Shown here: positions 309 through 392 of the stretch, piece by piece
Layout: every line of letters begins with the position of its first letter
Position numbering within the stretch: position 1 is the stretch's first letter
Assembly: GCA_964016885.1 (NCBI GenBank)
Contig: OZ024740.1
Span: 153,760,001-153,824,000, forward strand
Source of the DNA: Eledone cirrhosa
Lineage: Eukaryota
Reading direction: 5' to 3'
DNA length: 64,000 bases
The notes under the pieces: generated by a model
What the model was told of the DNA's origin: nothing
Database searches by the model: none
Seen by the model: the letters and a program-made list of their open reading frames with translations, nothing else
Translations under genes and position numbers: made by a program

Positions 309-392
309 GTCAGGATGGCCGAGCGGTCTAAGGCGCTGCGTTCAGGTCGCAGTCGGGTTTTCCCGGCGTGGGTTCGAATCCCACTTCTGACA
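309..392 (+). tRNA. trnL-CAG: tRNA-Leu(CAG), class A (variable loop TTTT)
   Basis: GTCAGGATGGCCGAGCGGTCTAAGGCGCTGCGTTCAGGTCGCAG...GGTTCGAATCCCACTTCTGACA; 84 nt; all stems pair; A and B boxes intact; T5 downstream. Confidence 0.93.

What the first reader, a model, noticed from the sequence alone, without database searches (positions are those of the whole stretch)
354..366. GC-flanked TTTT (Pol III terminator-like) inside a highly conserved tRNA variant
Class A and the three intact inverted copies (13 genes) read GGG-TTTT-CCC or a one-base variant in the variable arm (T5 at 11646-11650), while class B reads TCTT. In vertebrate 5S studies, T4 flanked by G/C terminates Pol III efficiently. These genes keep intact A and B boxes and a downstream T5. 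Either this organism's Pol III reads through T4, or the array is a source of about 50-nt primary 5' tRNA-Leu fragments. Class B genes have only T4 as their first downstream T-run, which suggests T4 can terminate here.
Basis: partly seen in the sequence, partly recalled or inferred. Interest (0 to 1): 0.7.

Follow-up and report, generated by a model that had tools for sequence, protein, structure and literature searches.

The report
tRNA-Leu variant with leaky internal stop
About half of this animal's leucine(CAG) tRNA genes carry a one-letter change that puts four Ts, a weak polymerase III stop signal, inside the gene, but their back halves are as well preserved as in sister genes without it, so the polymerase likely reads through most of the time and the genes likely make ordinary tRNA.

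Summary
Observation confirmed: 13 tRNA-Leu(CAG) genes in the window have T4 (one T5) as the variable-arm loop; genome-wide 19 of 41 matches do, on two chromosomes. The run arises from one C/T difference at loop position e2, the only loop position that varies (T, C, A, G all seen). The 'fragment factory' reading is not supported. Downstream of the T4 and outside the B box, T4 genes differ from consensus at 2 of 380 positions (TCTT genes 6 of 400, decayed copies 77 of 680), while their flanks diverge by 20% or more. All 72 tRNA-Lys(TTT) matches here also contain T4, and other Pol III genes mostly end in longer runs (at least T5 in 50 of 58). Most likely T4 is a leaky signal in this genome and these are working isodecoders. 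Against this: class B genes have only T4-type signals, and an isolated T4 stops human Pol III at 18-75% in cells or more in vitro, so a minority of abortive 5' transcripts is plausible. No RNA was examined. Closest precedents: tRNA-Lys(UUU), EBER1's internal U4, human C47d/T47d isodecoders. The scan's notes showed no earlier report of this.

The parts
309..392 (+). tRNA-Leu(CAG) gene, class A, 84 nt, identical to the genome-wide T4 isodecoder
   Evidence: cloverleaf with no mispairs
316..327 (+). A box region (D arm)
   Evidence: sequence; box consensus recalled
354..365 (+). variable arm: 4-bp stem closing a UUUU loop
358..361 (+). internal T4; base 359 is loop position e2, the C/T/A/G-variable site
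371..381 (+). B box (T arm)
   Evidence: consensus recalled
398..402 (+). downstream T5, likely the working terminator
4397..4400 (+). internal T4, gene 4348-4431 (A box damaged)
8457..8460 (+). internal T4, gene 8408-8491
11646..11650 (+). internal T5, gene 11597-11680 (private C-to-T change, leaves a G-U pair)
16419..16422 (+). internal T4, gene 16370-16453
19218..19221 (+). internal T4, gene 19169-19252
24445..24448 (-). internal T4, inverted gene 24414-24497
26578..26581 (+). internal T4, gene 26529-26612
31961..31964 (-). internal T4, inverted gene 31930-32013
34094..34097 (+). internal T4, gene 34045-34128
39039..39042 (+). internal T4, gene 38990-39073 (one arm mispair)
41813..41816 (+). 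internal T4, gene 41764-41847
46815..46818 (-). internal T4, inverted gene 46784-46867
6262..6345 (+). class B comparator gene with TCTT loop, otherwise identical to 309-392
6352..6358 (+). class B first downstream signal, T4-G-T2

Best explanation
These are tRNA-Leu(CAG) genes in which a single C-to-T difference at the second base (e2) of a UNUU variable loop creates a T4 run, and polymerase III likely pauses there but likely passes it most of the time, stopping at the T5 or longer run after the gene to give ordinary full-length tRNA. Shown: the run, its origin in one variable base, the conserved 3' half, the long downstream runs. Inferred: that T4 is a weak signal in this genome, that the T allele is nearly neutral and has arisen or spread several times, and that any transcripts ending at U51-U53 are a minority and are degraded. 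A side effect would be that T alleles cannot carry the m3C that human Leu(CAG) has at e2 (untested here).
For: (1) 3' half under constraint: at 20 positions downstream of the T4 and outside the B box, 19 near-consensus T4 genes differ at 2 of 380 sites and at 0 of 152 acceptor-strand sites; 20 TCTT genes 6 of 400 and 1 of 160; 34 decayed copies 77 of 680 and 13 of 272. Representative T4 genes of five flank lineages have 0 body differences while 40-nt flanks are about 78% alike (class A vs inverted) or near the alignment floor (other loci); chance of 0 changes in 20 sites at 22% divergence is 0.007. (2) Only loop base e2 varies among near-consensus genes: TTTT 19, TCTT 18, TGTT 2, TATT 2 of 41; by flank lineage T 5, C 11, A 2 of 18, so no visible deficit of T (counted). 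Flank trees pair T with C sisters twice (support 0.996 and 0.926). (3) All 72 Lys(TTT) matches have T4 in the anticodon loop (by construction of the pattern; intact genes seen), so one T4 context must be passed here. (4) Longest T-run within 30 nt of other Pol III genes is at least 5 in 50 of 58 distinct trailers, 4 in 4, under 4 in 4; 50 of 54 with a run, against 37% of 39,634 background windows that hold a T4 or longer run; only 48% of human tRNA genes have T5 within 100 bp (PMC12675287, passage). (5) T4 is 18-75% efficient in human cells (PMC5725217) and is read through by S. pombe Pol III (PMC4982682); EBER1 has an internal U4 loop yet is made full length, and mutagenesis did not support termination there (PMC5932547); Lys anticodon T-runs slow human Pol III (bioRxiv 2025.10.17.683076).
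Against: Class B and three other conserved TCTT lineages have no run over T4 within 30 nt, class B none within 600 nt in the window, so T4-type signals probably stop Pol III here at least cumulatively. An isolated T4 after a tRNA gene terminated very efficiently in HeLa extract (PMC3141230, section 14). A hairpin next to U4 raised termination in human cells (bioRxiv 2020.09.11.294140), and the anticodon hairpin ends 5 nt before this run. The Lys control is flanked C/A, not G/C. In an Ile(TAT)-like family the three copies with a G/C-flanked T4 in the intron are all damaged elsewhere and the two intact copies lack it (a single event). Conservation shows that some full-length tRNA is selected, not what share. 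Near-consensus groups were defined by total differences (3 or fewer), which biases their counts low; the lineage comparison does not depend on this. Long T-runs are favoured by slippage in an AT-rich genome.
Confidence: 0.68

Rival explanations
1. The internal T4 stops most polymerases; T4 genes are low-output genes kept by their residual full-length product, and the abortive 5' transcripts are waste.
For: Isolated T4 very efficient in HeLa extract; 75% with a U6 promoter; hairpin 5 nt upstream; class B manages with T4-type signals; T4-intron Ile copies are decayed; all 5 T4 lineages have a terminator of at least T5 against 6 of 13 others, as if two handicaps are not tolerated (post hoc, hand-computed one-sided p about 0.054; 0.04 before the thirteenth lineage was read).
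Against: No deficit of T among e2 alleles (5 of 7 non-C lineages); T4 genes are no more decayed than TCTT genes (12 of 19 vs 9 of 20 perfect); long terminators elsewhere in the genome.
Confidence: 0.2
2. The T allele is a selected attenuator: the genes are dual-output and make La-bound, leader-bearing 5' tRNA halves with their own role.
For: T alleles recur in five flank lineages and make up 19 of 41 matches; the truncated RNA would keep the anticodon hairpin and end in oligo-U; EBER1's 23-nt 5' piece binds La.
Against: A and G alleles occur at the same site, and C-to-T is the commonest expected change; no feature beyond the T4 marks these genes; EBER1's piece was judged a cleavage product; recurrence is equally explained by drift plus array amplification.
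Confidence: 0.06
3. T4 genes are silent or useless passengers whose bodies are kept identical by recent amplification and gene conversion from working genes.
For: Tandem array with near-identical repeats and many decayed copies; conversion could also move the e2 allele between lineages.
Against: Decayed classes in the same array differ at 5-19 of 84 sites and are not corrected; identity ends at the discriminator base; T4 genes at dispersed loci are perfect.
Confidence: 0.06

Closest known systems
tRNA-Lys(UUU) genes (internal T4 in the anticodon loop); Xenopus tRNA-Lys gene of Mazabraud et al. 1987
   Same: T4 inside a tRNA coding region that must be passed. Local slowing in human cells (bioRxiv 2025.10.17.683076, part 3 of 6 read). 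Mazabraud: only the title and its citation for read-through were seen; that part of the transcripts stop at the internal T4 in vitro is recalled.
   Different: There the T4 is forced by U33 plus the anticodon and flanked C/A; here it is optional, G/C-flanked, in the variable loop, and has one-base-different paralogues without it.
EBV EBER1 internal U4 (PMC5932547; passages and section 3.1 part 1 read)
   Same: U4 in a hairpin loop of an abundant Pol III RNA, same hypothesis, tested by T-to-C mutagenesis and not supported; full-length RNA abundant.
   Different: Viral non-tRNA in human cells; run at nt 23-26; its G/C flanks are recalled, not seen in the text.
Human C47d/T47d (e2) isodecoders of tRNA-Ser and m3C47d of tRNA-Leu(CAG) (PMC9072684; passages)
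   Same: Natural C/T isodecoder split at variable-loop position e2; T forms cannot be methylated.
   Different: Shown for human Ser; here in Leu(CAG) with a 4-nt UNUU loop, so the change yields T4. m3C in this organism is untested.
Vertebrate 5S T4 terminator with G/C flanks (Bogenhagen and Brown 1981; recalled, not read)
   Same: G/C-flanked T4 after a structured RNA segment.
   Different: This genome's 5S genes use T12-T19; the run here lies between A and B boxes.

Membership tests
Functional eukaryotic tRNA-Leu(CAG) gene | Cloverleaf with all stems paired, CAG anticodon, long variable arm | tested here: met
   (no mispairs; same energy as TCTT form)
Functional eukaryotic tRNA-Leu(CAG) gene | Intact A and B boxes and downstream oligo-T | tested here: met
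   12 of 13 window genes; 4348 has a damaged A box; box consensus recalled
Functional eukaryotic tRNA-Leu(CAG) gene | Body conserved above flanks through the 3' acceptor strand | tested here: met
Functional eukaryotic tRNA-Leu(CAG) gene | Mature, charged tRNA detected | not testable with these tools
   needs tRNA-seq
Efficient Pol III terminator | At least four Ts on the non-template strand, G/C flanks (vertebrate rule) | tested here: met
Efficient Pol III terminator | Length typical of this organism's terminators | tested here: not met
   50 of 58 other Pol III trailers have at least T5, median 8; T4-only trailers exist but in T-rich context
Efficient Pol III terminator | RNA 3' ends at the run | not testable with these tools
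   needs nascent or small RNA data
Gene for a primary 5' tRNA fragment | Relaxed constraint downstream of the stop outside the B box | tested here: not met
   2 of 380 differences, 0 of 152 in the acceptor strand
Gene for a primary 5' tRNA fragment | Stable leader-bearing RNA ending in oligo-U | not testable with these tools
   needs RNA data
m3C-e2 (47d) isodecoder pair | C/T difference at second variable-loop base | tested here: met
   position definition from PMC9072684
m3C-e2 (47d) isodecoder pair | m3C present on the C form in this organism | not testable with these tools
   needs modification mapping

The most novel reading that the evidence does not exclude
The e2 U allele is a built-in attenuator: half of the Leu(CAG) genes split their output between full-length tRNA and primary, leader-bearing 5' halves ending in UUU-OH, in a ratio set by UTP level, temperature or promoter context, giving nuclease-free tRNA-fragment biogenesis and tunable supply of one isoacceptor.
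Probability: 0.07. Interest if true: 0.72.

Novelty: new member of a known kind. Interest (0 to 1): 0.22.

Why it matters
If the best reading holds it is ordinary biology: one more tolerated internal T4, and indirect evidence that this invertebrate's Pol III threshold lies nearer T5 than the mammalian T4. Its residual value is as a natural experiment: about 19 versus 18 genes that differ by one base let allele-resolved tRNA-seq measure in vivo how much a G/C-flanked T4 between the A and B boxes costs. If the novel case held, it would be a route to tRNA halves without a nuclease.

Tried and rejected
Sequencing runs: no RNA holder listed (three runs of one study, kind not recorded); this says nothing on expression. 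Lys(TTT) searches assuming no intron found no true gene (one search had a wrong spacer); the genes have 16-24-nt introns. A search for other Leu(NAG) families found 0 matches, so their loops were not compared. Ser genes: 7 loop variants among the 30 true Ser matches of 35, none with T4; too few to show avoidance. The Rfam tRNA search scored only 63 candidates and gave mostly SINE heads, so the terminator survey is a sample of nine non-Leu groups, not a census. RNA:DNA hybrid energy (internal -10.7, class A -5.3, class B -7.1 kcal/mol) was not used as evidence, since G/C-rich context favours termination under the recalled vertebrate rule. A T4-bearing SINE head was not used: its share of the family is unknown. 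Mazabraud 1987 and a Maraia review were not held. Paper searches listed no paper on a T4 in a tRNA variable loop; listings only, subscription papers are not covered, supplements were not read. Searches of the scan's notes by words and near this place were blank.

Full report
Setting. The window lies at C1:153.76-153.82 Mb of a 3.0-Gb animal genome. Bases 1-57 kb hold a tandem array of tRNA-Leu(CAG) genes and decayed copies: 44 ARAGORN calls, 36 Rfam tRNA hits. The organism does not look like a vertebrate: its Lys(TTT) genes have introns (that vertebrate ones do not is recalled). Unreviewed notes of this scan call the genome octopus-like; I did not test that.

Observation. Confirmed in detail: 13 window genes have T4 (one T5, 11646-11650) as the loop of a 4-bp variable arm, each with T5 at +6; class B reads TCTT with T4-G-T2 at +7 and no T5 within 600 nt in the window. 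Gene 4348 has a damaged A box. Both loop forms give the same cloverleaf and energy.

What the variant is. A genome-wide gapped pattern gave 41 Leu(CAG) matches, all with a 12-nt arm insert and a TNTT loop: TTTT 19, TCTT 18, TGTT 2, TATT 2 (a lower bound). T4 genes also lie at C1:154.54 and 154.64 Mb and on C7, identical over 84 nt, with different flanks. Among near-consensus genes only the second loop base varies. By flank lineage there are 11 C, 5 T and 2 A (my count). Rough flank trees join class A (T) to a C gene and the 154.64-Mb gene (T) to a C gene, so the site has flipped or been converted more than once. This base is e2, which in humans is C or T among Ser isodecoders and carries m3C in Leu(CAG) (PMC9072684, passages). 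With a UNUU loop, the commonest kind of mutation at this free base makes T4 as a by-product (inference).

Is the 3' half still needed? If these genes served only to make 50-nt pieces, the sequence after the run would need only the B box. Of 95 blast hits, 76 were ungapped and full length; I used 19 T4 and 20 TCTT genes with up to 3 differences and 34 copies with 5 or more, leaving out 3. At the 20 non-B-box 3' positions the differences are 2 of 380, 6 of 400 and 77 of 680; in the acceptor strand 0 of 152, 1 of 160 and 13 of 272. The grouping biases the first two low, but the lineage comparison does not depend on it: class A and the inverted class differ at about 22% of 40-nt flank positions and at 0 of 84 gene positions. 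Conversion is a caveat, yet decayed classes in the same array are not corrected. Full-length tRNA from T4 genes is therefore likely selected; the share of polymerases that get through is not measured.

How strong is T4 here? All 72 Lys(TTT) matches contain T4, in a C/A context. Among 58 distinct trailers of Ser, Lys, Thr, Asp, Asn, Ile, 5S and U6 genes, the longest T-run within 30 nt is at least 5 in 50, 4 in 4 and under 4 in 4, median 8; A-runs of 5 occur in 2. Background windows that hold a T4 or longer run reach 5 in 37%. 5S ends in T12-T19 (6 of 7 trailers; one has no run) and U6 in T7-T10. In humans T4 is the commonest tRNA terminator (PMC3141230, Introduction) and 48% of genes have T5 within 100 bp (PMC12675287, passage). 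This points to a weak T4, with slippage and related copies as confounders.

Evidence the other way. Six of 13 distinct non-T4 Leu trailers top out at T4, so T4-type signals probably work, at least in T-rich context or in series; distant termination is tolerated at many human tRNA genes. An isolated T4 was very efficient in HeLa extract, and 75%, 27% or 18% in cells depending on the promoter (PMC5725217, abstract and passages). A hairpin beside U4 raised termination, while U4 alone did not terminate (bioRxiv 2020.09.11.294140, parts 1-2 of 4); here the anticodon hairpin ends 5 nt upstream. A CRAC study found 4T a good terminator and also that folding behind Pol III promotes elongation. Three Ile(TAT)-like copies with a G/C-flanked intron T4 are all damaged, two intact ones lack it. 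All 5 T4 lineages have at least T5 downstream against 6 of 13 others, a post hoc trend that is not significant.

Mechanism committed to. Internal promoter boxes recruit Pol III; it slows at U50-U53, mostly continues, and releases at the T5 or longer run; normal processing gives tRNA-Leu(CAG) with U at e2. A minority of transcripts may end at U51-U53 and be degraded. All transcription steps are inferred; no RNA was seen. Odds: 0.68 mostly read through, 0.20 mostly aborted but wasteful, 0.06 functional fragments, 0.06 silent passengers.

Comparison and novelty. It works like tRNA-Lys(UUU) and EBER1, Pol III units with an internal U4 that are made full length; for EBER1 the premature-termination idea was tested and not supported (PMC5932547). 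S. pombe Pol III reads through T4 (PMC4982682, passages), so the threshold is species-specific. My eight paper searches listed no report of a variable-loop T4, which is weak evidence of absence. It is a new member of a known kind; its interest lies in the one-base paralogue pairs as a clean in vivo test.

Noticed in passing
L080-L099, L110-L113, L116-L124 (Lys-TTT loci): tRNA-Lys(TTT) genes, 72 matches, carry 16-24-nt introns of variable sequence in the copies read; three copies read have an internal T5 together with a variable-loop change.
   Followed up: partly
L116:6013-6113, L116:8243-8343, L117:217-317: Intron-bearing Ile(TAT)-like copies with a G/C-flanked T4 in the intron, each damaged elsewhere; intact copies at L116:3186 and L117:2464 have T3.
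   Followed up: partly
window 3662-3745 and 11 more 'Leu(TAG)' calls: These are decayed Leu(CAG) copies with a C-to-T anticodon change and 6-10 other differences, not a native Leu(TAG) family; similar anticodon-shifted copies occur in the Thr(AGT) array (L125-L127).
   Followed up: partly
window 26529, 28132, 34045, 35650: Neighbouring class A and class B genes share the same G-to-A change in the T loop, hinting at conversion between classes or a parallel change before a segmental duplication.
   Followed up: no
L067, L071-L075, L077, L079: Dispersed tRNA-headed SINE-like copies, several next to TA repeats, whose head contains T4.
   Followed up: no
window 50409-51362, 57777-59774, 61489-63248: Broken reading frames resembling a DNA transposon, reverse-transcriptase retroelements and a helicase-bearing element (resemblance recalled, not searched).
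   Followed up: no
L012:4099-4182, L080, L086, L087: Near-perfect tRNA genes followed directly by (TA)n with no T-run in 30 nt; possibly moved copies or genes using non-canonical stops.
   Followed up: no
L013:1501-1574: A high-scoring tRNA-Thr(TGT) gene with an internal T4 at the anticodon stem-loop junction.
   Followed up: no
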